A stretch of 64,000 nucleotides of DNA. Origin: Naegleria gruberi (Eukaryota). The notes under the pieces were generated by a model that did no database searches, was not told the DNA's origin, and saw only the letters and a program-made list of their open reading frames with translations. The stretch lies in assembly GCA_000004985.1 (NCBI GenBank), contig GG738897.1. The stretch is one strand, 5' to 3'. The position numbers and the translations under genes are program-made. Shown piece after piece: positions 7,594 through 61,392 of this stretch (position 1 is its first letter; every line of letters starts with the position of its first letter).

Positions 7594-9543
7594 TTAATGG
7601 AAATAATTGAAAATGCACTTGATGGATTCCTCTCTTAGCATTCTTCTTAAATTGTATTCCTTACTCAATTCCTCATTTGCATGTTCCTCACTTTCGTCTT
7701 TAGATTCCAATAATTGAAGTGAATCTTTTCCAAAATATTCCAAGTCTTCTTTTCTGTTTAATTCCAACAGTTCTGATTCACTCAAAGTTTGATAATCAAT
7801 TTCATTTTCTTTCCATTCATTTGTTTGAGAAATATTCGAATGTGTATGATTGAAGAATAATGAGCCATGCCCATACCAATTCTTTAAATAGAGTTTCTCT
7901 GAGAGCGTTCGTTCCTCTCCATAAAGTTCTGAATGAACTCTAATGGAAACCTTTAATAATTCATCCTCTAGGGAACCTTCCAATATTTTGCTTTCGTCCA
8001 AAGTTTCAATTTCTGAATCGTCAATAAAATCTTCATCCTTTTTTGCACCATCTTTCTCCTCAGCGATATTAGATTCCTTATTGATAATAATAAATTCATC
8101 ATTCTCCTCATCTGAATTTTCATTTTCTGTATATTCTAATAGGAATTCCATTTCATTATCAGAAACTTCCTCATCGTCCACATCACTAGGGACATCTGAT
8201 TCAGGTCTTGATCTTTTATTCTCAATGACATAATAAAATTTAGAATTATCCAACGCATCCATAATTTCTATATCCGAAACTTTCAATTCTTCATCCTCTT
8301 CCAAGTCTCCTCCAATTTCTGCATTACTTCTTAAAAAATGCTCATAATCCATTGGGTGTTCAGTGTATGGAATAGGAACATCCTTATTGTCTCCATACTT
8401 GTTCTCCACAACTATTTTCAATAAATTTCGAAGATATTCCTGTAAGAGAAAGAGTGCATTTTCAATCATAATTGGTTCAAAATAAATGATTCCTCTTTTT
8501 CTAAATAGATTCTTGATACCATCTCGAATAGAATGATACATAAAAGTGTCATCTAAATGAACGCAAATTTCAAACTTTCGAAATTCACTGCATTGATAAG
8601 TTTCTAATAAAATTGAAGTCTGCTCGTCATTGGAAACTGCCGATTTCTGTACATCATTAATATATGAATCAATTTGTCTTTGATCATTCTTAATTTTATC
8701 ATAGAAAAGTAAGAAATCTTCATCTAATTTCAAATTATGCACTTGTTCATCTGTCAACTTTAAATATTTCTGAACTAGTCCTTTATATTCTTCAGAATAA
8801 ATAGTATCTTGTGAAAGATAGAATTGCTCATCAATTGAACCTTCACAAAGTGGAATACCAAATGGAATTCTCTTGTCAATAATCTCATTTTCATCTTCCA
8901 TTTCAATTGTCTCATCATTTTCTATAATTTCATCTTCTTCTACTGTCGCTTCAACTTCATTCTCTTCATCATCTTCATCTTTGTGAAAATAAATTGGTTT
9001 AACTCCAAAACGAAAATTTCCAGATTTGAATTCTTCTAGATTAGTGGCGTAGGTATCAAAATCTACATGAGATACTTGCTCCCAATCAGTTTCATTTAAA
9101 AATATGGTTGGCTTCCAAGTAGAAAGATCAGTAAATAGATCTGGATGCCTTGTGTGAATAGTTTCGAATTTTCTAATCTTATCAAATATCCCATGCATGT
9201 GTAAATTGGTTTCGTAAATATATTTGGTTGCATCACGAAATATGGAAAGCAGCATGGATGTTAAATCTTTACAGAGGAATAACAATTCGAAACTTTCGTC
9301 CACTTCTAGAAACCTCATAACATGAAACCAACAATCGGAAATTTTAACAAGATCACACGATTTGTTTTTGATATTCGAATGTTGAATAGTTGAGTTGAAA
9401 TCAAATTGTCGTTCAACATTTTCTATTTCTTCATCACAAGATGATTGTGAATCATCCGATTCGTTATCTAAAGTAGCCGAAACAATCAGAAACTTGCTTG
9501 GGCGCAAATATTCACTATTTAGCAGCGGAAGTGTTCTCTTCAT
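7594..9543 (-). CDS. Acidic (D/E-rich) protein with an N-terminal F-box-like motif
   Basis: 649-aa ORF. 'ISDCWFHVMRFLEVDESFELLFLCKDL' resembles an F-box. Long D/E-rich stretches cause spurious antisense ORFs. Confidence 0.4.
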   Translation of the reverse strand: MKRTLPLLNSEYLRPSKFLIVSATLDNESDDSQSSCDEEIENVERQFDFNSTIQHSNIKNKSCDLVKISDCWFHVMRFLEVDESFELLFLCKDLTSMLLSIFRDATKYIYETNLHMHGIFDKIRKFETIHTRHPDLFTDLSTWKPTIFLNETDWEQVSHVDFDTYATNLEEFKSGNFRFGVKPIYFHKDEDDEENEVEATVEEDEIIENDETIEMEDENEIIDKRIPFGIPLCEGSIDEQFYLSQDTIYSEEYKGLVQKYLKLTDEQVHNLKLDEDFLLFYDKIKNDQRQIDSYINDVQKSAVSNDEQTSILLETYQCSEFRKFEICVHLDDTFMYHSIRDGIKNLFRKRGIIYFEPIMIENALFLLQEYLRNLLKIVVENKYGDNKDVPIPYTEHPMDYEHFLRSNAEIGGDLEEDEELKVSDIEIMDALDNSKFYYVIENKRSRPESDVPSDVDDEEVSDNEMEFLLEYTENENSDEENDEFIIINKESNIAEEKDGAKKDEDFIDDSEIETLDESKILEGSLEDELLKVSIRVHSELYGEERTLSEKLYLKNWYGHGSLFFNHTHSNISQTNEWKENEIDYQTLSESELLELNRKEDLEYFGKDSLQLLESKDESEEHANEELSKEYNLRRMLREESIKCIFNYFH

Positions 9544-52219: not shown

Positions 52220-55066
52220 ATGTTCAGATCATCACCAAGTAGTCCCTCCGAAACTCAAACTCTTGTCGCTTGTTCTTCTCCTCTCTCATTGATGGGCTTT
52301 TCTGATGATGAAGAGGATGAACAGCCAAAACATGAACTTAACATCCACACACCAATTACACCTCAAATTAAAAACATTCCTTCTCATAATAATTTAATGA
52401 ATTCTCCACTAAAGTCTCCTCCGAATACTAATACATCAAATGGTAAATTATTACTCAATCTTCAACAAGGTAGTACTTCCATCACTAATAAGAATCCATT
52501 CAATATGAGCAATACAATGGATAGTAGTGATGATGATTTATTGGTTGATATTGATTCTCCACTATTAGAATTTGGACAAGACAATGTATTTAATAACAAC
52601 ACCACCACCTCTACAGCAATTAATAGAAACAACAATTCAGGAAAGTCTTCAAGTGATTCATCATCTTCGGAGAAGACTTCCCAAGGAGGCTCCTCTGATA
52701 CATCATCAAGTTCTTCAAGTAGTAGTAAGAAATCTTCATCACTTAAAGGCAGCAATAGCAGTAATAGTATTGCAAGTACGAGTAATACTAATAATAATGG
52801 AGGATCAACTCTTACTATTAAGCCAAAGGCTAAATCCACAAAAGAAAAGAAAGAAAAGAAAGAAAAGAAAGAAACTAAATCTCCAAAGAAAAAGAAGGAA
52901 ACTCCAAAAAAGAAAGTCGAATTCAAGAAGGTGGAAAGTAGTTTCAGTGACAGTAGTCCATCACCCCAAAGAGAATCAGAAAGTTCTAAGAAGAGAAAGA
53001 AATCCACTCCTGAAGAGGTTCCTAAAAAGTGGAAAAAGAAGAAAGTGGAAGAAGTTCCTCCTCTAGCTCAACCACCTCCATCAGTTGGAGGAAAGAAAAG
53101 TCTCTGTCGACAATTTACTGACATGATTACAGAAATTAAAAAGACAGCAAAGAAAAAGAAGTATCATGATGATTTGGATGTGAGTGAGGATGATTCAGAT
53201 GATTTGATGGATATTTCATCAAGTGAGGAGTTGCTATCTTCTGATTCAGAGGATGAAGTGGTTGTGAGAAAGAGAAAGAAATTAACTCCAAAGAAAAAGA
53301 AGCTCTTTGCAAATATGCGTTTTGTAATTTCAAATTCTCTTATTGAAAGTGATAAAGAAAAACTGGAAAAGAAAATTAAGGAAGAAAATGGAACAATTAT
53401 AAGACAATTATCATCTAGTAATTTGGATAGTTGTGAAATTGGTAAAACTGTACTCATTTCAGAAAAGACATCAACAAAACCAACCTATTTAATTGCACTA
53501 TTACTCGATATTCCAATACTGAAGAAGGATTGGATATTCGATTCAATTACCGAGAAGAAACTCATAACAGATGAGAAGACTATACAGAAGTATCTATTAG
53601 ATAGAGGTACAACTAGTTCTAGATTGGATCCATCTACTCTTCATGTTGAAAAACAAACATTCAATTCATCAATGATGTGCTGTAAAAAGGAAAATAGAAT
53701 TTTCTATGGTTGTCGAGTGAAGATTTTGGGAAATGAAAAAGAATTGTCCAGTTGGATCAGTATATTGGTTGCTGGTGGAGCCATCATAGATAATGAATTG
53801 ACTACACAAACAAGTGAAGGATCGAATTTCATTTTTGTAAAAGATTCGAATAAGCTTACTGAAGAAGATGTGGAGAAGGCAACATCTATGAAGCTTCCAA
53901 TACTTGATGGAGAAAGTTTGCTTCAAATTGTAATTACACTAGAAAGAAAATTCTCAGAAGAGCAAGTTTTAAACTATGCAGAGCTTTCGCAGATAACTAG
54001 AAAGATGCAACCACTTCCTTCGATCAATCTATTGGAAATGTCAATGCCACTAATTGAATTGCCAGATGAAACTGATGTTATCAACAATATGGATCTCATA
54101 GATAAGATTGAGTTTGGTAACTTTTTTAATATTAATGAGAAAGATTCCATTCAAAAAACCTCATTCACAAGAGTTACAACTTGTAGTGGTGATACTATAT
54201 GTGAAAAGTATTACATTCATGATATGGTTGTTTTGGATTATTTGAATGAGGAGTTAATTTGTAGAATAGATAGTTTATACTATTGTGGAAATATTCCAAC
54301 ACTAAGGGCTACCCAATATTATTCGAATCCAAAACGAAAGCTTCAAAAAACTGAAAGAGTAGTCAATTGTTCCGTAGAGCATATCAAGTACAAGCTTAAT
54401 ATTTGTGGACCTACCCGTCACAAATCCCAACACTTTTATTCGAATCAACGTTTCAACACCAAGACACAGGTCATTTCTGATATTTTGGAAGATATCAAAA
54501 CAGTTGGAGAAACTTGTCTTGGCTTGGAACAATGTAAAGAGCACAAATTCAAATGGCTACCACCTTTCAAAACCAATATTTTCAATGACCACATTATGGT
54601 TAGCACACTCAAATGGAGGAAGCAATTATTCCAACAGGGAGACTTTGTTCTCATCAAACAAAAACAATCTGATTTACAAATTGTTGGATGCATAACAGAG
54701 ATGAGGGAGAATGATACCAATATTTTCGCCATTCCATCTTCCAGAAAGTTTCCAATTTCACAGGGATCACTCTTTGTGGAAATATTCGAAAAGCTCGACC
54801 AAGATTTTTGTGTACTCTCCAAAAACTCCAACGTGATAACAACAACAACTGATAACCACCAACAAGGAAACACTGTTGTCAGTCAATTGTGTGTGAATAA
54901 CAGTAATAATCAACAGTACAAGACAACTCACCAAGTTTCAAGATTGGATGTTGAATCTATTCAGCACATCCAATCATTTGTAGCCATTAATGGTCAATTA
55001 ATTGGAGACAATTCAATTAACACGCTAGTCCAACAATACTCTAACAATCTGATCATCATCCACTAG
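52220..55066 (+). CDS. Nuclear low-complexity protein with tandem BRCT-like domains and a C-terminal BAH-like region
   Basis: 948 aa. The N-terminus has S/K/E-rich tracts with KKKEKKEKKE runs. 'LFANMRFVISNSL...KTVLISEKTSTKPTYLIALLLDIPILKKDWIFDSI' and 'RVKILGNEKELSSWISILVAGGAIIDN...FIFV' look like BRCT repeats. Confidence 0.45.
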   Translation: MFRSSPSSPSETQTLVACSSPLSLMGFSDDEEDEQPKHELNIHTPITPQIKNIPSHNNLMNSPLKSPPNTNTSNGKLLLNLQQGSTSITNKNPFNMSNTMDSSDDDLLVDIDSPLLEFGQDNVFNNNTTTSTAINRNNNSGKSSSDSSSSEKTSQGGSSDTSSSSSSSSKKSSSLKGSNSSNSIASTSNTNNNGGSTLTIKPKAKSTKEKKEKKEKKETKSPKKKKETPKKKVEFKKVESSFSDSSPSPQRESESSKKRKKSTPEEVPKKWKKKKVEEVPPLAQPPPSVGGKKSLCRQFTDMITEIKKTAKKKKYHDDLDVSEDDSDDLMDISSSEELLSSDSEDEVVVRKRKKLTPKKKKLFANMRFVISNSLIESDKEKLEKKIKEENGTIIRQLSSSNLDSCEIGKTVLISEKTSTKPTYLIALLLDIPILKKDWIFDSITEKKLITDEKTIQKYLLDRGTTSSRLDPSTLHVEKQTFNSSMMCCKKENRIFYGCRVKILGNEKELSSWISILVAGGAIIDNELTTQTSEGSNFIFVKDSNKLTEEDVEKATSMKLPILDGESLLQIVITLERKFSEEQVLNYAELSQITRKMQPLPSINLLEMSMPLIELPDETDVINNMDLIDKIEFGNFFNINEKDSIQKTSFTRVTTCSGDTICEKYYIHDMVVLDYLNEELICRIDSLYYCGNIPTLRATQYYSNPKRKLQKTERVVNCSVEHIKYKLNICGPTRHKSQHFYSNQRFNTKTQVISDILEDIKTVGETCLGLEQCKEHKFKWLPPFKTNIFNDHIMVSTLKWRKQLFQQGDFVLIKQKQSDLQIVGCITEMRENDTNIFAIPSSRKFPISQGSLFVEIFEKLDQDFCVLSKNSNVITTTTDNHQQGNTVVSQLCVNNSNNQQYKTTHQVSRLDVESIQHIQSFVAINGQLIGDNSINTLVQQYSNNLIIIH

Positions 55067-55126: not shown

Positions 55127-58100
55127 ATGAGCAATTCCAACCCGAGAGGAGGAGGATATGGTGAGTCAGCATCATCATCTCTGGGTGGTGGTGGTCAAGT
55201 AAAGGAATCTAAACGATATACGATGGATTTTAAAAAACTTGGTCTCAATCCCATGAATTTGAATAAATCATCAAATAATAGCAAGACAAATAATTTAGGA
55301 GGAGCTAACAGTTTATTACAACAAATAATTAATGATGATAAGAATTATCATTTGCAACAAGTGGGTGAAGTGATTGAAGGACAAACTACGGAGGGAATTA
55401 ATGATGTGTTTTTTAATGTACCTCCAGGTAAATTTAAAGTACAAGTTTCGAATACGACTGGAACTGGATTGAGAATATTTTCATCTGTAGTGTTGAGAGC
55501 TGATGTTTCATGTCAATCATCAGTGACATCAACTATTCAAAATGATAATGATCAATTACATAATTCAGAAAATATAGAAAAAGGTAATTCATGGAGTACT
55601 CTTGTTACAACACCAATGGATTCACAACAATCTACAATTAGAATTACTTTATTTTGTGAACCACCTGATGCTAAATGTAGTTACAAAATTCAAGTTCATC
55701 AAATTTTTAATATTGTACATACTAAAGGTTTCGAATTGGGAAAAGGTGAGGAAAATGATTACAAATTTGATTTGAGTCCTGGTCAATATCACATATTTGT
55801 TCAATCATTGAATTCTCAACCATTTGCTTGTAGTTATCAATTAGCCAATTCTACAAGTTATTCAGAGGATAATATCAAAGATTTAAAGATTCTTCCACAT
55901 CCAATTGTGGTCATCATTGAAGATGATCAACAACAGAGTACCAATTTACTTGATGTGAAAGTTGCATCAAAAACACAAAAAGCAGTCAAGGCAAAATTAT
56001 TAATTTTACAATCTATTAGTGAATTTGAATTGAAAAGAACTCTGGATAGTGAACAGAGAGTTACAATTAATGAGTTTAAATCATTAATTGATGATAGTTA
56101 CAGAGAAAGAAATGTAGAAACAATGCAAGGATTGGAATTAATGTTGACAGATTTATATGAAAAGAAGGGGTCAAGATTTCAACCTATTCATGCCTATGGG
56201 AAGGCAATGAAAACTCATTTGGAAGAATCTTTGGAATTGGAAAAACAGTTAAAAGAAATCACTCATGTTGATAATAATTTGTTAAAATCAAATTTGTTGG
56301 ACAATTTGATTAAACAATTTAAGAATTTGAAATACTTGACAGAGAAAAACAAACTTGACACTAAGGTTTTGATCAATCTTTCTGAATCAGAGCAAAAAGT
56401 AATCAAATTCAAGGAAATTGTAAAGAAAATCAATGAATGGAAACCAAAATTGAAGGAAGTCCTGCACAATCCAGACAGCAAAGTTCTCCAGGAAACACTT
56501 GATCAAATTAGTGACGATACACTTTTACAAGATGATTCGTGCTCTGAAATTATCAATAACATGCTTGAAGAACCGTCAATTTTGCTGAAACGACTTCAAG
56601 CAGTTGACAAGACCAAAAAGAAAATCAAAAAGTTCGTTGCTGAGGAAAATGAAACTGCTCTTCAATCACTTAAACCTGTCATTGAAGATTATGACAAGGT
56701 AGAGAGAAAATACATTGAAAAGGAGTATAATCTCATTCTCCAAACATTGGAAAAGATTAGTTTGAGAAAGAATGCAGAAAAGAAATTGAGAGAAGCCATT
56801 TTAACAAAACAAACTCACAGAATTGGTGCTGATATCAAAGCTTTTGAACCATATCTGAAAGGAACTGATCTACTCAGAGATGCCAAGCAAATATTGGAAG
56901 ATTTACTTGACAATGGTGATGCCGACGTTTCTAAATATTTACATGGAGCAGATGAGGTGATTGTTGCTTCTCCACCAATTCAAAAATCAACACCCAAACA
57001 ACCAGAACCTAAAAATCCATCGAGTCCAGTAGTGAAAATTCCACTCACCAACAAGGAAGATTTACTGAATAGTTTACTTGCTGAGGATGATGGCTTACCG
57101 AGTGCCAGAGGAGAAAATACAGAACCACTGAAAGCAACAACAATTAATTCGCCAACCACTTCAACAAGTGCTGTTGAACCATCTACTGCCTCCTCTGTTA
57201 AATCGCCACAGGAGGAACAAGTTCAAACTGAAAGGGAAAAGAAGGATGCCTTGTTGAATTCCATTCTTGCAGATGATGATGGATATGAAGAACAAGTGAC
57301 CAATATTCAACAACCATCAGCAGCTGTTGTTGCAACAAAAACGGTCAAGAAGATTCCAACCAAGATTTCAATTCCAAAAACTAAAAAGATTACAAAAAAT
57401 AGTGATTCTGGTAAGATAATCAACTCTATCAGATCTCCAATGACAGATAAACAAAAGACTGGAAGTACAGATACTCAATCTGATATTAGTGAGCTTTCTG
57501 ATAGTGATTACGAAATGTCAGATGATGAAGATGAAATTCCAAAACCAAAAGCTTCACTTTTAGAATCACTTGGATCAATATATAGTGATGTGTTAACAGA
57601 GGATGACAAGAAGAGTTCTGAAAATATTGCATCATCACCAATACCACTTGATATTCTTTTGAGAAAACCATCTTCAACTCCAACTGAAATACCAAAGAAG
57701 GATCAAGACTTTACTCCAAAGAATAGCAGTCCAATCGTCAGTTCCATGTCTCCAAAGGAACAACAACCATTGCCAACCATTAAAACAAGTATTGAGAAGA
57801 AAGCAGAACAAACAGTTACCTTCTCTCCTCAATTTCCAACTCCAAAACCTAAAAAGACAGTCTTCTCTCAAGCATCTGTTCTCCAAAATAAGAAGCAATG
57901 GCAAGATGAGTTGAAGCAGAAAGAAAACTCACTCTTGGAGAGATTTGAAAGGATGATTTCCAAACCAGTGAGTAATACATTGGATATTAACAATAAGGAA
58001 ATGGTAAAACTCATGATGAGACAACACAAAATATCAAACCATCCTCTGCTTAATCAACTTCACCAGGAAATACTCATTCTCATTAATAGCAATGGAGGCG

Positions 58101-59326
58101 ATCCTAGAAATAATGGTGTGATAACAGTCACCAAATTTGATCATTTTGTGGAACATGATATTGTGTATAGTCCAATTAATACTCAAAATGGAACACTTTC
58201 ACAATATACAGCTCAATACTATGATCACTTTATCAAAATATTGGCAAGTGTTTGTTTGAATAGAACTAAAAAGAAGTTCTTTGGAATGTCAGAAAGAACA
58301 TTCTACAGTATTCTATACGATTGTGTTTCTGATAACAGTTTGGTAATGATTAATGATCCATCACTGAGATATATGAATACTCATAGAATTCACTTGTTAT
58401 TGGAATATTTTGATTCAAAGAAATATGCCCAGAAATATCAACAACAATATCAACAATCCAAGGATATTAGTTTAATGGAATTCTTGTTGGATATTGGTGA
58501 ATTGGTTGATATTTTCAATTTTATTTGTAAATATTGTAATAATTACTTATCAACAGTTTATGATCCAACATCAATCATGGTAGATAGTACTCATAGAGAT
58601 GAATTCCTCTCAATTGTTGAATTATTGAATCAGATGAACTTTTGTTTAGGATACACTCCAAAAAAACTTGATGTTTATGCAATTAATATTCATTTGAAAG
58701 GAAGTGTTGAAAATGTACTTCAACTCACAAGAGCAACAGAGGATATTGCTAAATTTGTTGGATCTAAGAAGAATCTCAAAGTTGATGATCTAGTTCACAT
58801 ATCAAAGTTTGCCAGATGTACTCTGTGTCCAATTCTTGAACGAATTTTCAAGCAGGGAATTAAATTCCAATCAGTAATGAAAGGATACTATCACATATGG
58901 AGTGTAATTCTTGAAATGTTTTATTATTTACAATATCAATTGCCTGATTATGTAAAGAGTGGGTTGTCGACTGCCATTGCCCAACAGGAATTAATTGACA
59001 CTTCAGGTTTGAGTAATGAACAATTACACTACTTTGATTTTGTTCATTACACACTCCTTATTTCTAAATCCATTACTAGAAACGAGCTGCTTTTCGATAG
59101 GCATTTACATTTTAGAACTTGGTTGTGTTTGGCATTGAATCATCACAGATTATTCAATTTTATTAATTTAATATTCAAGAATCAAGCTATACTGAAGAGA
59201 TATTACAATATTGAAGCATCTATATTAGATCCTCACGTTCAAGAATTAATATTATCATGTGTGAACACACTGTGTGAAATTGATTTCCAAATCAAATTGG
59301 ACCATCCTGAAATGTATAATTTTTAA
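55127..59326 (+). CDS. Large RUN-domain-containing protein (C-terminal RUN domain)
   Basis: 1399-aa uninterrupted ORF. The C-terminal 'HFRTWLCLALNHHRLFNFINLIFKNQAILKRYYNIEASILDPHVQELILSCVNTLCEIDFQIKL' matches the end of the RUN-domain consensus. The centre has coiled-coil segments and two copies of an 'LLNS(L/I)LA(E/D)DDG' motif. Confidence 0.5.
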   Translation: MSNSNPRGGGYGESASSSLGGGGQVKESKRYTMDFKKLGLNPMNLNKSSNNSKTNNLGGANSLLQQIINDDKNYHLQQVGEVIEGQTTEGINDVFFNVPPGKFKVQVSNTTGTGLRIFSSVVLRADVSCQSSVTSTIQNDNDQLHNSENIEKGNSWSTLVTTPMDSQQSTIRITLFCEPPDAKCSYKIQVHQIFNIVHTKGFELGKGEENDYKFDLSPGQYHIFVQSLNSQPFACSYQLANSTSYSEDNIKDLKILPHPIVVIIEDDQQQSTNLLDVKVASKTQKAVKAKLLILQSISEFELKRTLDSEQRVTINEFKSLIDDSYRERNVETMQGLELMLTDLYEKKGSRFQPIHAYGKAMKTHLEESLELEKQLKEITHVDNNLLKSNLLDNLIKQFKNLKYLTEKNKLDTKVLINLSESEQKVIKFKEIVKKINEWKPKLKEVLHNPDSKVLQETLDQISDDTLLQDDSCSEIINNMLEEPSILLKRLQAVDKTKKKIKKFVAEENETALQSLKPVIEDYDKVERKYIEKEYNLILQTLEKISLRKNAEKKLREAILTKQTHRIGADIKAFEPYLKGTDLLRDAKQILEDLLDNGDADVSKYLHGADEVIVASPPIQKSTPKQPEPKNPSSPVVKIPLTNKEDLLNSLLAEDDGLPSARGENTEPLKATTINSPTTSTSAVEPSTASSVKSPQEEQVQTEREKKDALLNSILADDDGYEEQVTNIQQPSAAVVATKTVKKIPTKISIPKTKKITKNSDSGKIINSIRSPMTDKQKTGSTDTQSDISELSDSDYEMSDDEDEIPKPKASLLESLGSIYSDVLTEDDKKSSENIASSPIPLDILLRKPSSTPTEIPKKDQDFTPKNSSPIVSSMSPKEQQPLPTIKTSIEKKAEQTVTFSPQFPTPKPKKTVFSQASVLQNKKQWQDELKQKENSLLERFERMISKPVSNTLDINNKEMVKLMMRQHKISNHPLLNQLHQEILILINSNGGDPRNNGVITVTKFDHFVEHDIVYSPINTQNGTLSQYTAQYYDHFIKILASVCLNRTKKKFFGMSERTFYSILYDCVSDNSLVMINDPSLRYMNTHRIHLLLEYFDSKKYAQKYQQQYQQSKDISLMEFLLDIGELVDIFNFICKYCNNYLSTVYDPTSIMVDSTHRDEFLSIVELLNQMNFCLGYTPKKLDVYAINIHLKGSVENVLQLTRATEDIAKFVGSKKNLKVDDLVHISKFARCTLCPILERIFKQGIKFQSVMKGYYHIWSVILEMFYYLQYQLPDYVKSGLSTAIAQQELIDTSGLSNEQLHYFDFVHYTLLISKSITRNELLFDRHLHFRTWLCLALNHHRLFNFINLIFKNQAILKRYYNIEASILDPHVQELILSCVNTLCEIDFQIKLDHPEMYNF

Positions 59327-59327
59327 T

Positions 59328-60554
59328 TTATTTAACAATATTAAATTTTGAAATTTTCTTAGCTAGATATGTTGATAAAAAGTTTAATCCCTTCACTGTA
59401 ATGATTATCTCAATTTCGAATTTTCTTAATTTCATACTTTGCAATTCATCTCTGACATGATCTAGTTCTTTTCTTTTGATGGAATCCTTGATATGACGAT
59501 CAATAAGATTAATTTCTCTTTGAGATATTGGCTGATTGTAATAATGTGGAATGTCCTTAACATCTTCGTAATTCATTCCAAGCCATTGAAGTCTATCTTT
59601 GAGTGCTGACTCTTGTTGAACTTTGTGTCTACTCATTTCAACACTTCCATACTTGTATGTACTCATAATTTGATATCCAAAAATATTGAAATCACATAAA
59701 GCATATAATCTAGCATTTGGAAATCTAGTAGAAACATGTTTCACAACATAACGAGTCACAATCGATGGATATCCACATCCAGTAATCAACAAACAATTCC
59801 TAACAAGTTTGAAAATCTTATCTTCCACAAGTCTTCTAAATATTGCATCTTTCTCAATAATTAACACAGTGTCCACATTTCCAAAATAATCAATTGAGGG
59901 AAAATCTCCTGGAATGCTTTCCACTGAGGCCTGTTTGTTTCCATTAAGCGATAACAAGCTATTTCCTCTTCCATCATTGCTGTAAATAAATCCCTTACTC
60001 ATGCAAATGATATTCAATAAGGATCTGTCAACCTTCAACACATCACCAACAGTTGACAAACATCTATTACATTGAATTTGATCCCTGAATGTAGTAACAT
60101 TCATATAAAACAATTCTCTCTGAGTAATCTTCTTCCTACAATTCAACAGTAAATGAACATCCTTCATCAACAGCCAAACAAGATGATTCTTCTTAAGATG
60201 ATTATTTTTCAAACTCTTCTTCTCAAATGTTCCACTTTTTGATTTAATTATTTGATGAAGCCTTTCTCCATTAGACTGATTCGAATCCCTTGTTCCGAAT
60301 GAATAATTTAAAATCAAATCTTGTCCATTCTTTTCATCATTCTCAATCAATTTAAATAGAAACTCCAAAACATATGATTCAATCAATGATATAATCTCCT
60401 CATTCGGTAGTAAATAGTGAATCTCACACATCTTTTCAATATCAAACAAGTTTAATTCATCTTCCATATCATCTTCATTCTCCTCCAAAACAAGCCTTGT
60501 TGCATTTTCAGACAAGCCTTGTTCCTCATCCTCAGCATCGTTCTCATGATTCAT
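59328..60554 (-). CDS. SPO11: SPO11 / topoisomerase VI subunit A homologue (meiotic DSB transesterase)
   Basis: 5Y-CAP motif 'TQRELFYMNVTTFRDQ' carries the catalytic Tyr (compare yeast 'TVRDIFYSNVELFQRQ'). Toprim 'VLIIEKDAIFRRL' supplies the Glu, and 'ITGCGYPSIVTRYVV' is present. The Toprim acidic motif reads 'CDFNIFG', D-x-N instead of D-x-D-P. Confidence 0.8.
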   Translation of the reverse strand: MNHENDAEDEEQGLSENATRLVLEENEDDMEDELNLFDIEKMCEIHYLLPNEEIISLIESYVLEFLFKLIENDEKNGQDLILNYSFGTRDSNQSNGERLHQIIKSKSGTFEKKSLKNNHLKKNHLVWLLMKDVHLLLNCRKKITQRELFYMNVTTFRDQIQCNRCLSTVGDVLKVDRSLLNIICMSKGFIYSNDGRGNSLLSLNGNKQASVESIPGDFPSIDYFGNVDTVLIIEKDAIFRRLVEDKIFKLVRNCLLITGCGYPSIVTRYVVKHVSTRFPNARLYALCDFNIFGYQIMSTYKYGSVEMSRHKVQQESALKDRLQWLGMNYEDVKDIPHYYNQPISQREINLIDRHIKDSIKRKELDHVRDELQSMKLRKFEIEIIITVKGLNFLSTYLAKKISKFNIVK

Positions 60555-60723
60555 TGTAATACAATTTACTCTAAATCTCTTTCAATGTTGTTTTATTTTT
60601 TTTAAAGCCTAAAATTAATCAATTAATAATGAATTTGAATGAATTAATCGATAAATTAATGAGTGGTGCATTGTTTTTGTACATTAAGAGTAATCTAACT
60701 TCTCCTATTGGCAGCTTTAATAT

Positions 60724-61392
60724 TTACATTAATTTTGTTGTTTGTAGACTACAATTTGAGTTAATAAGATGTTGGAATATATTAGTTTCATAATACTTAC
60801 AATGAGGATTAAGTCTTAGTTTGTTTAAAAACTTTTGTAACCATGTATCTAGAATATTGGTTGGCAAAACGAGCATTTCTCTCATAGTACCTGATTCATT
60901 AACTTGATATGGCTTAGTAAAGCTTGACATGAAATTGAATAAATCATTGGCAATAGCCTTGACTAATTGTTGAACTTGAGATTGTTCCATTTGTTGTTTT
61001 CCGACAGCATTACAAGTCAAATTATTAATTGTATCAATTGGTTCTAAGGAAATACCAACAAATAATTGATCAACATTATTATTATAATTAATTCCTTGGA
61101 AAGCAGATTGAACACTTGATGATGAATCAAAGGATAAAGGAACGTGAATATGTGTACTTGGTTTATCAATTGTCAAGAAATCCAAAAATTCCCAATTATT
61201 TGAATCTTTAGAAATATAAATTGTAAATCCGTGGCTTAATGGAGGCATTCCAACATTTGGCAATGCAAAAATCGTCAACTCCGATATCGATTGTCCATTC
61301 ACTTTATCAGGTATTTGTATAAACCAACGATTTTCACCCACTTGATTAAAATTTGCATAACAAGGTCTTCCAGGACTAACCAATCCAAACAT
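60724..61392 (-). CDS. Hikeshi (DUF775/OPI10) Hsp70 nuclear import carrier
   Basis: 'MFGLVSPGRPCYANFNQVGENRWFIQIPD...' matches the MFGxLVxGR Hikeshi N-terminal signature and fold length. Confidence 0.75.
   Translation of the reverse strand: MFGLVSPGRPCYANFNQVGENRWFIQIPDKVNGQSISELTIFALPNVGMPPLSHGFTIYISKDSNNWEFLDFLTIDKPSTHIHVPLSFDSSSSVQSAFQGINYNNNVDQLFVGISLEPIDTINNLTCNAVGKQQMEQSQVQQLVKAIANDLFNFMSSFTKPYQVNESGTMREMLVLPTNILDTWLQKFLNKLRLNPHCKYYETNIFQHLINSNCSLQTTKLM

What the first reader, a model, noticed from the sequence alone, without database searches (positions are those of the whole stretch)
59300..60554. SPO11 with a variant Toprim metal-binding motif, stopping 1 bp from the stop codon of a convergent 1399-aa gene
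The SPO11 homologue keeps the catalytic Tyr ('RELFY') and the Toprim Glu ('IIEKD'). The conserved Toprim D-x-D-P-x-G is replaced by 'CDFNIFG' (D-x-N, with Ile for Pro). In yeast Spo11 the two Asp residues contribute to Mg2+ binding. The RUN-domain gene's TAA (59324..59326) and SPO11's TAA (complement 59328..59330) are separated by a single nucleotide. Any 3' UTR therefore runs antisense through the partner's coding region. That architecture could impose antisense or transcriptional-interference control on a meiosis-specific gene. SPO11's promoter is also confined to 170 bp (60555..60723).
Basis: partly seen in the sequence, partly recalled or inferred. Interest (0 to 1): 0.6.

Follow-up and report, generated by a model that had tools for sequence, protein, structure and literature searches.

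The report
Naegleria SPO11-2 gene, ordinary D-x-N motif
This is the already catalogued SPO11-2 gene of the amoeba Naegleria gruberi: its "odd" metal-binding motif is the normal, functionally tolerated signature of the SPO11-2 branch, and its back-to-back position against the neighbouring gene reflects how tightly this genome is packed.

Summary
A 408-aa SPO11/Top6A ORF lies at 59328..60554 (-). It has Tyr150 in RELFY, Glu234 in IIEKD and D288-F-N290-I-F-G293. Its TAA is 1 nt from the TAA of a convergent 1399-aa RUN-domain gene.

The window is Naegleria gruberi and the gene is NAEGRDRAFT_81222, already listed as one of two Naegleria Spo11 genes. Its motif is not an anomaly:
- 119 of 120 plant SPO11-2 proteins carry D-W-N-P.
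- 55 of about 150 nearest family representatives carry D-x-N-P.
- A tree built without the motif columns puts the heterolobosean proteins inside the D-x-N/SPO11-2 clade (47 of 51 bootstraps).

Published work already describes D-x-N as the SPO11-2 signature. It also reports that yeast D290N is nearly wild type, because that residue only touches the non-catalytic metal B. Only Pro→Ile is lineage-specific, and it is minor. dN/dS of 0.12 shows a maintained gene.

The tail-to-tail abutment is conserved: N. fowleri and N. lovaniensis have a 6-bp CDS overlap. However, convergent gaps of 9-70 nt are the norm in these genomes, and synonymous sites at the overlap show no extra constraint. Antisense control is therefore unsupported, though untested without RNA data. 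Interest is low.

The parts
59328..60554 (-). SPO11-2 coding sequence (408 aa, uninterrupted ORF including the TAA stop) = NAEGRDRAFT_81222
   Evidence: ORF list; Pfam TP6A_N plus Toprim. The protein is identical to P0001/XP_002672555.1 except for a 34-aa segment that the reference model splices out.
60009..60188 (-). 5Y-CAP / winged-helix domain (aa 123-182); the catalytic Tyr150 codon TAT is at 60105..60107, in R146-E-L-F-Y150
   Evidence: Pfam PF04406, 1.8e-14. Aligned to yeast Spo11 R131...Y135. R146 and Y150 are invariant in 40 homologues.
59352..59867 (-). Toprim domain (aa 230-401); the Glu234 codon is at 59853..59855
   Evidence: Pfam PF21180, 1.9e-30. AlphaFold pLDDT is about 90 or higher over most of the domain (two 10-residue blocks, aa 301-320, score 62 and 69). 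Foldseek top hits are Top6A (9o0g 8.6e-14, 1d3y) and yeast Spo11 (8urq 2.3e-11).
59676..59693 (-). Metal-binding motif D288-F-N290-I291-F-G293 (GAT TTC AAT ATT TTT GGA); the Asn290 codon is at 59685..59687
   Evidence: Read directly from the sequence; column assignment. D-F-N-I-[FHY]-G is shared by all five heterolobosean proteins.
59396..59497 (-). In-frame 102-nt stretch treated as an intron in the reference gene model; most likely coding
   Evidence: Removing it reproduces P0001 exactly. The 34 aa it encodes include K378, E380, I381 and E382, which are invariant in Heterolobosea and align with K-A-E-I-E/Q of other SPO11 proteins.
59327..59327 (.). The single nucleotide between the two convergent stop codons
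   Evidence: The homologous junction in N. fowleri and N. lovaniensis is a 6-bp CDS overlap.
55127..59326 (+). Convergent 1399-aa gene with a C-terminal RUN domain (aa 1232-1392, nt 58820..59302)
   Evidence: ORF list; Pfam RUN 3.7e-20. The C-terminus is conserved to the last residues in two other Naegleria species.
60555..60728 (-). Spacer between the Hikeshi stop and the SPO11 ATG (169 nt to the unspliced ORF stop, 174 nt to the spliced stop)
   Evidence: The same spacer is 26 nt in N. fowleri and 48 nt in N. lovaniensis.
60729..61392 (-). Upstream same-strand Hikeshi gene, with a conserved 52-nt 3' intron at 60749..60800
   Evidence: Pfam Hikeshi N and C domains. Spliced C-termini are conserved across three species.

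Best explanation
The gene is the Naegleria gruberi orthologue of SPO11-2 (NAEGRDRAFT_81222). SPO11-2 is one of two ancient eukaryotic paralogues of the topoisomerase VI A subunit that cut DNA to start meiotic recombination.

Shown: it has the full catalytic kit, with Arg146/Tyr150 on the winged helix and Glu234 and Asp288 in the Toprim fold. It has the SPO11-2-typical Asn at the second 'Asp' position.

Inferred from yeast and type II topoisomerase work: Glu234 and Asp288 hold the catalytic metal A. Position 290 only helps hold the structural metal B, where an Asn carbonyl can substitute for Asp. The D-x-N protein is therefore expected to be an active cleaving subunit. It most likely acts in a dimer with itself or with the second Naegleria paralogue (50278), together with a TOPOVIB-like partner. 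Pro291→Ile sits at the start of the following helix and is a heterolobosean-specific neutral variant.

The 1-nt stop-to-stop spacing and the short upstream spacer are products of genome compaction within a conserved gene block (BRCT, RUN → ← SPO11 ← Hikeshi, Vma22 →). They are not a dedicated regulatory device.
For: Identity: best hit is N. gruberi XP_002672555.1 / NAEGRDRAFT_81222, listed as Spo11 in Herman 2021 Table S2.

SPO11-2 membership: 10 of the 11 best non-heterolobosean hits of a full HMMER search carry D-x-N. These hits include plants, Chara, Mesostigma, Gefionella and Paulinella. The best named relative, P0006, is plant SPO11-2. 119 of 120 plant SPO11-2 proteins have DWNP[AS]G and 106 of 120 have RELFY. 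An NJ tree on 272 columns, excluding the motif, nests the heteroloboseans in a clade of 55 tips whose other members are about 90% D-x-N. 47 of 51 bootstraps support this.

Tolerance of Asn: PMC11302465 states that D-x-N is always found in plant SPO11-2 and sometimes in protist SPO11-2, and that Mamiellales have only a D-x-N SPO11-2. PMC11746154 reports that D290 coordinates only site B, that D290N has little effect in yeast, and that E233 and D288 are essential.

Fold and geometry: AlphaFold model and Foldseek hits to Top6A/Spo11.

Maintained function: dN/dS of 0.12 (core 0.07) between N. fowleri and N. lovaniensis, similar to housekeeping neighbours.

Compaction: convergent gaps are 1-70 nt in 6 of 8 pairs in this window, and 9-42 nt in L001 and L002. 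The gene order is conserved.
Against: No transcript, protein or genetic data for Naegleria were available, and meiosis has never been observed in this genus, so the meiotic role is inferred from orthology. The second paralogue (50278) could not be retrieved, so the partner is unknown. The tree is a simple NJ on saturated distances and has no named Top6A anchors. The SPO11/RUN junction is the tightest convergent pair in the window, and it stays at 1 nt to -6 nt across species that are only 54% identical in SPO11 protein. That persistence could reflect selection rather than inertia.
Confidence: 0.82

Rival explanations
1. The convergent abutment is a regulatory device. Read-through or 3' UTR transcription of the RUN gene runs antisense through SPO11 (and the reverse). 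This silences the meiotic gene in vegetative cells by transcriptional interference or double-stranded RNA.
For: The geometry forces overlap of any 3' UTR with the partner's CDS. The abutment is conserved in three species: a 1-nt gap in N. gruberi and a 6-bp CDS overlap in N. fowleri and N. lovaniensis. It is the tightest of 8 convergent pairs in the window. From general knowledge, antisense control of meiotic genes is known in yeasts.
Against: Convergent gaps of 9-70 nt are routine in these genomes, so 3'-end overlap is a general property rather than a SPO11 property. The identical-codon fraction in the last 50 codons is 0.79 for SPO11 and 0.67 for RUN, against 0.72-0.83 anywhere in five neighbouring genes, so there is no extra constraint. 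Willaertia and a metagenomic Naegleria-like contig keep SPO11 without the RUN neighbour.
Confidence: 0.08
2. The D-x-N protein is a catalytically weakened or non-cleaving subunit that only works as the structural half of a heterodimer with the second Naegleria paralogue (50278).
For: Naegleria has two Spo11 genes. In plants, SPO11-1 (D-x-D) and SPO11-2 (D-x-N) are both indispensable (PMC8430568 abstract). E. coli topo I loses DNA binding when the second Asp is mutated (cited in PMC11302465).
Against: Tyr150, Arg146, Glu234, Asp288 and Arg268 are all retained. Yeast D290N is nearly wild type. Mamiellales have only a D-x-N SPO11-2. From general knowledge, the catalytic Tyr of Arabidopsis SPO11-2 is itself required (Hartung et al. 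2007). Strong purifying selection acts on the core, with dN/dS of 0.07.
Confidence: 0.07
3. The gene has a non-meiotic job in an organism with no observed sex, for example in encystment or differentiation, or in vegetative DNA metabolism.
For: Plasmodium SPO11-2 is reported as essential in asexual stages (PMC11302465). A Giardia Spo11 homologue is reported to act in cyst differentiation (PMC8584520 title and abstract). Meiosis is unobserved in Naegleria (PMC9928731).
Against: Naegleria keeps an almost complete meiotic toolkit, including DMC1, HOP2, MND1 and MSH4/5, which argues for cryptic meiosis. Nothing in the sequence departs from meiotic SPO11-2.
Confidence: 0.1
4. It is the A subunit of a true topoisomerase VI (SPO11-3/TOP6A) rather than a meiotic SPO11.
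For: UniRef names it 'DNA topoisomerase (ATP-hydrolyzing)'. The best structural hits are archaeal Top6A.
Against: D-x-N is reported to be absent from paralogues other than SPO11-2. The tree places it with plant SPO11-2. Topo VI accessory proteins were reported as not found in excavates (PMC9665070). The UniRef name is an automatic family label.
Confidence: 0.03

Closest known systems
Plant SPO11-2 (e.g. Arabidopsis AtSPO11-2 and its orthologues)
   Same: Same domain order and the same RELFY tyrosine motif. Same D-x-N replacement of the second Toprim Asp. It is the closest named relative by HMMER score and by tree.
   Different: Plants have D-W-N-P-[AS]-G, whereas Naegleria has D-F-N-I-F-G (Ile for Pro). 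Identity is only about 30%. The partner in Naegleria is not identified, and the meiotic role is untested.
S. cerevisiae Spo11 (structures 8urq/8uru) and its D290N allele
   Same: Equivalent catalytic residues: R131/Y135/E233/D288 in yeast correspond to R146/Y150/E234/D288 here. The yeast D290N mutant mimics the natural Naegleria state and is nearly wild type.
   Different: Yeast belongs to the SPO11-1 lineage with D-F-D-P-Y-G, and it works with Rec102, Rec104 and Ski8.
Archaeal topoisomerase VI A subunit (M. jannaschii 1d3y, S. shibatae 2zbk, M. mazei 9o0g)
   Same: Same fold, with 5Y-CAP and Toprim domains. Same metal-site architecture.
   Different: Archaeal enzymes are strictly D-x-D-P-Y-G. 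They are stable A2B2 ATP-dependent strand-passage enzymes rather than break-makers.
Antisense or read-through control of meiotic genes at convergent gene pairs in yeasts (e.g. IME4/RME2 in S. cerevisiae; convergent meiotic genes in S. pombe). Recalled from general knowledge and not checked here
   Same: A meiotic gene lying tail-to-tail with another gene, so that read-through gives antisense RNA.
   Different: There are no transcript data here. The arrangement is the genome-wide norm in Naegleria, and no sequence constraint was detected at the overlap.

Membership tests
Spo11 / topoisomerase VI subunit A family | 5Y-CAP (winged-helix) domain with the catalytic tyrosine in an R-x-x-[FY]-Y context | tested here: met
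   Pfam PF04406, 1.8e-14 at aa 123-182. R146-E-L-F-Y150 aligns to yeast R131..Y135. R146 and Y150 are invariant in 40 homologues.
Spo11 / topoisomerase VI subunit A family | Toprim domain with the conserved Glu and the first Asp of D-x-D (metal site A) | tested here: met
   Pfam PF21180, 1.9e-30. E234 and D288 fall in the conserved columns and at canonical strand ends in the AlphaFold model.
Spo11 / topoisomerase VI subunit A family | Second Asp of D-x-D-x-x-G (metal site B) | tested here: not met
   The position is Asn290. The literature treats this as an allowed exception confined to SPO11-2 (PMC11302465). It does not exclude membership of the family.
Spo11 / topoisomerase VI subunit A family | Overall fold matches solved Top6A and Spo11 structures | tested here: met
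   Foldseek against PDB: 9o0g_C 8.6e-14, 1d3y_B 3.6e-12, 8urq_A 2.3e-11, with TM-scores of 0.42-0.58. The next unrelated hit has E of about 0.2.
SPO11-2 paralogue | D-x-N in place of D-x-D | tested here: met
   D288-F-N290 here. 119 of 120 plant SPO11-2 proteins carry DWNP[AS]G.
SPO11-2 paralogue | Phylogenetic grouping with plant SPO11-2, apart from animal and fungal SPO11 | tested here: met
   NJ tree without the motif columns; supported in 47 of 51 bootstrap replicates. Caveat: simple distance method with saturated distances.
SPO11-2 paralogue | Acts with a TOPOVIB-like subunit, and in plants with SPO11-1, to make meiotic double-strand breaks | not testable with these tools
   A second Naegleria Spo11 (50278) and an N. 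gruberi TOPOVIBL are reported in the literature. Neither sequence could be fetched, and there are no functional data.
Topoisomerase VI proper (SPO11-3/TOP6A) | Groups with TOP6A and co-occurs with TOP6B, RHL1 and BIN4 | tested here: inconclusive
   The tree places it with SPO11-2, but no curated TOP6A anchors were included. The literature reports no RHL1 or BIN4 homolog found in excavates.
Antisense-regulated convergent gene pair | Overlapping, anticorrelated transcripts from the two strands | not testable with these tools
   Only the geometry and an indirect test could be done. The indirect test found no excess synonymous conservation at the overlapping ends.

The most novel reading that the evidence does not exclude
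In Naegleria the SPO11-2 gene is pinned between two neighbours. The Hikeshi stop lies only 26-174 nt upstream of the SPO11 ATG, and the RUN-gene CDS abuts or overlaps it by 6 bp downstream. This arrangement has been kept across species that are only 54% identical in SPO11 protein. Its expression could therefore be governed entirely by read-through from the neighbours, with sense transcripts coming from Hikeshi and antisense transcripts from RUN. That would be a switch keeping the meiotic nuclease off in vegetative amoebae, and it could help explain why Naegleria sex has never been seen in culture.
Probability: 0.06. Interest if true: 0.5.

Novelty: already known. Interest (0 to 1): 0.15.

Why it matters
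It matters little beyond housekeeping. The finding confirms that Naegleria keeps an intact, selectively maintained SPO11-2, which adds to the case for cryptic meiosis in this genus. It adds one more lineage in which D-x-N is fixed, here with Ile instead of Pro. The work also exposes a probable false intron in the reference gene model, which deletes 34 conserved Toprim residues and would mislead structural or phylogenetic studies. If the neighbour-entanglement idea were true, it would offer a handle on how a meiotic nuclease is kept silent in an organism whose sexual cycle is unknown. Nothing found here favours that idea.

Tried and rejected
1. Alternative Mg2+ ligands. I looked for a different acidic pair at the Mg2+ site. 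HMM and phmmer alignments and the AlphaFold model all keep D288/N290 at the canonical position, so this was rejected.

2. Profile search with a mixed alignment. It returned mostly Penicillium and Aspergillus SPO11 and added little. The word-indexed search is biased towards close relatives of each row.

3. Synonymous constraint. At first, SPO11's two ends looked more conserved than its middle (0.82 and 0.79 against 0.61; p = 0.011 and 0.024). Five neighbouring genes and the RUN gene then showed that 0.67-0.83 is simply the local background and that it is SPO11's middle that is low. I rejected this as evidence for overlap-imposed constraint.

4. The exact-sequence look-up of the 408-aa ORF and of P0001 in the contig collection found nothing, so no transcript-derived contigs could be examined.

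5. The second paralogue (NAEGRDRAFT_50278) could not be retrieved.

6. Malik et al. 2007 (MBE) is not held in the library.

7. A literature search for Naegleria UTR lengths and poly(A) signals gave nothing usable.

8. The Rfam scan of 52-64 kb gave no hits. tblastn found no second SPO11 copy in the window.
Full report
**What is there.**
- The window is AT-rich (about 33% GC) and densely packed with ORFs.
- The ORF at 59328..60554 (-) encodes 408 aa. The ORF at 55127..59326 (+) encodes 1399 aa.
- Read directly, the + strand runs TAA (59324-26), T (59327), TTA (59328-30), so the two stop codons are one nucleotide apart.
- Pfam finds the two Spo11/Top6A domains in the 408-aa protein: TP6A_N at aa 123-182 (1.8e-14) and Toprim at aa 230-401 (1.9e-30). 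It also finds a C-terminal RUN domain in the 1399-aa protein (3.7e-20).
- The next gene upstream of SPO11, on the same strand, is Hikeshi. Beyond the RUN gene lies a BRCT-domain gene.

**Organism and gene.** The best database hit is 'predicted protein [Naegleria gruberi]'. This is XP_002672555.1 / EFC39811.1 / NAEGRDRAFT_81222 / UniProt D2VU03.
- It is identical to the window ORF except that the reference model lacks 34 residues near the C-terminus. Removing an in-frame 102-nt GT...AG stretch at 59396..59497 reproduces the reference protein exactly.
- The deleted residues include K378, E380, I381 and E382. These are invariant in Heterolobosea and align with the K-A-E-I-E/Q block of all other SPO11 proteins. 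The uninterrupted ORF is therefore the better model.
- Herman et al. 2021 (PMC8296547, Table S2) list two N. gruberi Spo11 genes, 50278 and 81222, with N. fowleri counterparts g437 and g1227. The Naegleria pangenome paper likewise has two SPO11 orthogroups.
- Brinkmeier et al. 2022 include N. gruberi SPO11 and TOPOVIBL in their alignments.

It is not in this window.

**The motif.** The column assignment is secure.
- phmmer aligns the query's D-F-N-I-F-G without gaps to T-D-A-D-P-Y-G of S. shibatae Top6A and to T-D-G-D-P-Y-G of M. jannaschii Top6A.
- D288 and G293 are invariant in a 40-sequence alignment.
- An AlphaFold model (mean pLDDT 77.7, above 90 around the motif) puts D288/N290 between strand 282-286 and helix 291-302. 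It puts Glu234 just after strand 229-233, which is the classic Toprim layout.
- The model's best PDB matches are Top6A of M. mazei and M. jannaschii and yeast Spo11.

No alternative acidic pair needs to be invoked.

**D-x-N is not unusual for this branch of the family.**
- All five heterolobosean proteins carry D-F-N-I-[FHY]-G. These are N. gruberi, N. fowleri, N. lovaniensis, a metagenomic Naegleria-like protein and Willaertia magna.
- A full HMMER search of 1.84 billion representatives with the heterolobosean profile gave 2304 hits. Among the aligned rows from the best 150 hits plus ten reference sequences, 80 have D-x-D-P and 55 have D-x-N-P. The remaining rows have other residues at the Pro position (V, A, I, L or S).
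- Ten of the eleven best non-heterolobosean hits are D-x-N. These hits come from plants, Chara, Mesostigma, the malawimonad Gefionella, Paulinella and marine protists.
- The best named relative, P0006, is plant SPO11-2. Of 120 plant SPO11-2 proteins retrieved, 119 carry D-W-N-P-[AS]-G and 106 carry RELFY, the same tyrosine motif as Naegleria.
- A neighbour-joining tree on 272 columns, with the six motif columns removed, nests the heteroloboseans in a clade of about 55 sequences. Roughly 90% of its other members are D-x-N, and it contains plant SPO11-2. This grouping recurs in 47 of 51 bootstrap replicates.

**The literature says the same.**
[quoted passage not shown] They also state that it is absent from other paralogues, and that Mamiellales make do with a D-x-N SPO11-2 alone (PMC11302465).
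- Yu et al. 2024 show that in yeast Spo11, D288 and D290 hold a metal in site B, while E233 and D288 are inferred to hold the catalytic metal A. [quoted passage not shown]

The Asn is therefore a known, tolerated, clade-typical state. Only Ile for Pro is specific to Heterolobosea. Non-Pro residues occur at that position in about 13% of the sampled family, and the position begins the next helix in the model. I regard it as a minor neutral variant.

**Is the gene maintained?** Between N. fowleri and N. lovaniensis, SPO11 has dN 0.115 and dS 0.946, giving dN/dS of 0.12. For the catalytic core it is 0.07. The housekeeping neighbours give 0.07-0.19. This is purifying selection on a working protein, not decay.

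**The gene arrangement.**
- The order BRCT, RUN → ← SPO11 ← Hikeshi, Vma22 → is conserved in N. fowleri and N. lovaniensis. It is not conserved in Willaertia.
- In both of those species the uninterrupted RUN reading frame ends at locus position 9195 while SPO11 ends at 9200. The two coding sequences therefore overlap by 6 bp (TTATAA / TTATAG), and each stop codon is the antisense of the other gene's last Leu codon.
- The RUN C-terminus is conserved to the end.
- N. gruberi has 11 fewer nucleotides at the junction, which gives its 1-nt gap.

The abutment is therefore old and real. It is also ordinary for these genomes.
- With a simple longest-ORF heuristic, the eight convergent pairs in the window have gaps of 1, 37, 40, 47, 66, 70, 314 and 697 nt.
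- Called genes in the other two species have convergent gaps of 9, 10, 11, 41 and 42 nt.

Overlap of 3' ends with the neighbour must therefore be common genome-wide.

**Test for extra sequence constraint at the overlap.** I measured the fraction of identical codons among conserved residues between N. fowleri and N. lovaniensis.
- SPO11's first and last 50 codons (0.82 and 0.79) exceed its middle (0.61).
- Five neighbouring genes show 0.65-0.83 throughout. RUN's last 50 codons (0.67) are no higher than its middle (0.74).

The ends are at background level and the SPO11 middle is low, as might be expected for a weakly expressed gene. There is no sign of an embedded functional element.

**The upstream side.**
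- Hikeshi has a small conserved 3' intron: window 60749..60800 in N. gruberi, L001 7881..7929 in N. lovaniensis, and L002 7901..7951 in N. fowleri.
- Removing this intron gives conserved C-termini (NPHFYKQQN*, NPHFYKYQTE*, NPHFYKFQNE*), whereas the unspliced tails are unrelated.
- The real Hikeshi stop in the window is therefore 60729..60731, which is 174 nt from the SPO11 ATG. The same spacer is 48 nt in N. lovaniensis and only 26 nt in N. fowleri.

A promoter 'confined' to the spacer is therefore not a safe inference. In N. fowleri the promoter elements must lie inside Hikeshi, or SPO11 is reached by read-through.

**Mechanism.**
- Shown: a complete Spo11/Top6A catalytic kit, the SPO11-2 signature, the fold, and purifying selection.
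- Inferred from yeast, plant and topoisomerase work: Tyr150 of one subunit attacks the DNA backbone at a hybrid active site. That site is formed with the Glu234/Asp288 metal A site of the partner subunit. Asn290 contributes to the structural metal B site through its carbonyl oxygen. The partner is either a second copy or the other Naegleria paralogue, together with a TOPOVIB-like subunit.
- Not shown: that Naegleria undergoes meiosis, when the gene is expressed, or who its partner is.

**Verdict.** The motif is the known SPO11-2 state, and the gene is already catalogued. The tail-to-tail geometry is the extreme end of a genome-wide habit, with no detectable extra constraint. Interest is low. 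The one useful by-product is the probable false intron in the reference model.

Noticed in passing
window 59396..59497 (-): The reference gene model NAEGRDRAFT_81222 (374 aa) splices out an in-frame 102-nt GT...AG stretch with a weak GTCATA donor. The 34 aa lost include residues invariant across Heterolobosea, and they align with the K-A-E-I-E/Q block of all SPO11 proteins. This is probably a false intron.
   Followed up: yes
window 60749..60800 (-); L001 7881..7929; L002 7901..7951: The Hikeshi gene has a conserved 49-52-nt 3' intron (GTAAGT...AG). Spliced C-termini are conserved across three Naegleria species, whereas the unspliced ORF tails are not. The last exon is only about 20 nt long and ends 26-174 nt before the SPO11 start codon.
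   Followed up: yes
L001 9195..9200 and L002 9195..9200: In N. lovaniensis and N. fowleri the SPO11 and RUN-gene coding sequences overlap tail-to-tail by 6 bp (TTATAG / TTATAA). Each stop codon is the antisense of the other gene's final Leu codon.
   Followed up: yes
L001 9195..9327: The N. lovaniensis annotation ends the RUN gene at 9328 (1425 aa). However, the uninterrupted 1510-aa ORF continues to 9195, and its last 44 residues align with N. gruberi and N. fowleri. The annotated 3' end is probably wrong.
   Followed up: partly
L002 9585..9650 (-): The N. fowleri RUN gene is split into two ORFs (1372 aa and 129 aa) by about 66 nt. The split falls at a point where N. lovaniensis and N. gruberi read straight through (…YYYLQ[FY]QLPD…). 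This is either a species-specific small intron or an assembly error in the Logan contig.
   Followed up: no
L001/L002 8001..9200: The middle of SPO11 has lower synonymous conservation (identical-codon fraction 0.61, dS 0.95) than all neighbouring genes (0.72-0.82, dS 0.44-0.67). This is consistent with weak codon-usage constraint on a rarely expressed gene.
   Followed up: partly
L005 3329..4786 (+): In a metagenomic Naegleria-like contig, the gene downstream of SPO11 is a same-strand 485-aa ORF with no Pfam match instead of the convergent RUN gene. The abutment is therefore not universal in the group.
   Followed up: partly
window 52220..55066 (+): A 948-aa protein with a tandem BRCT pair (Pfam BRCT, BRCT_2 and BRCT_3) and long Ser/Lys-rich low-complexity N-terminal regions lies 60 nt upstream of the RUN gene. 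It is syntenic in N. fowleri.
   Followed up: no
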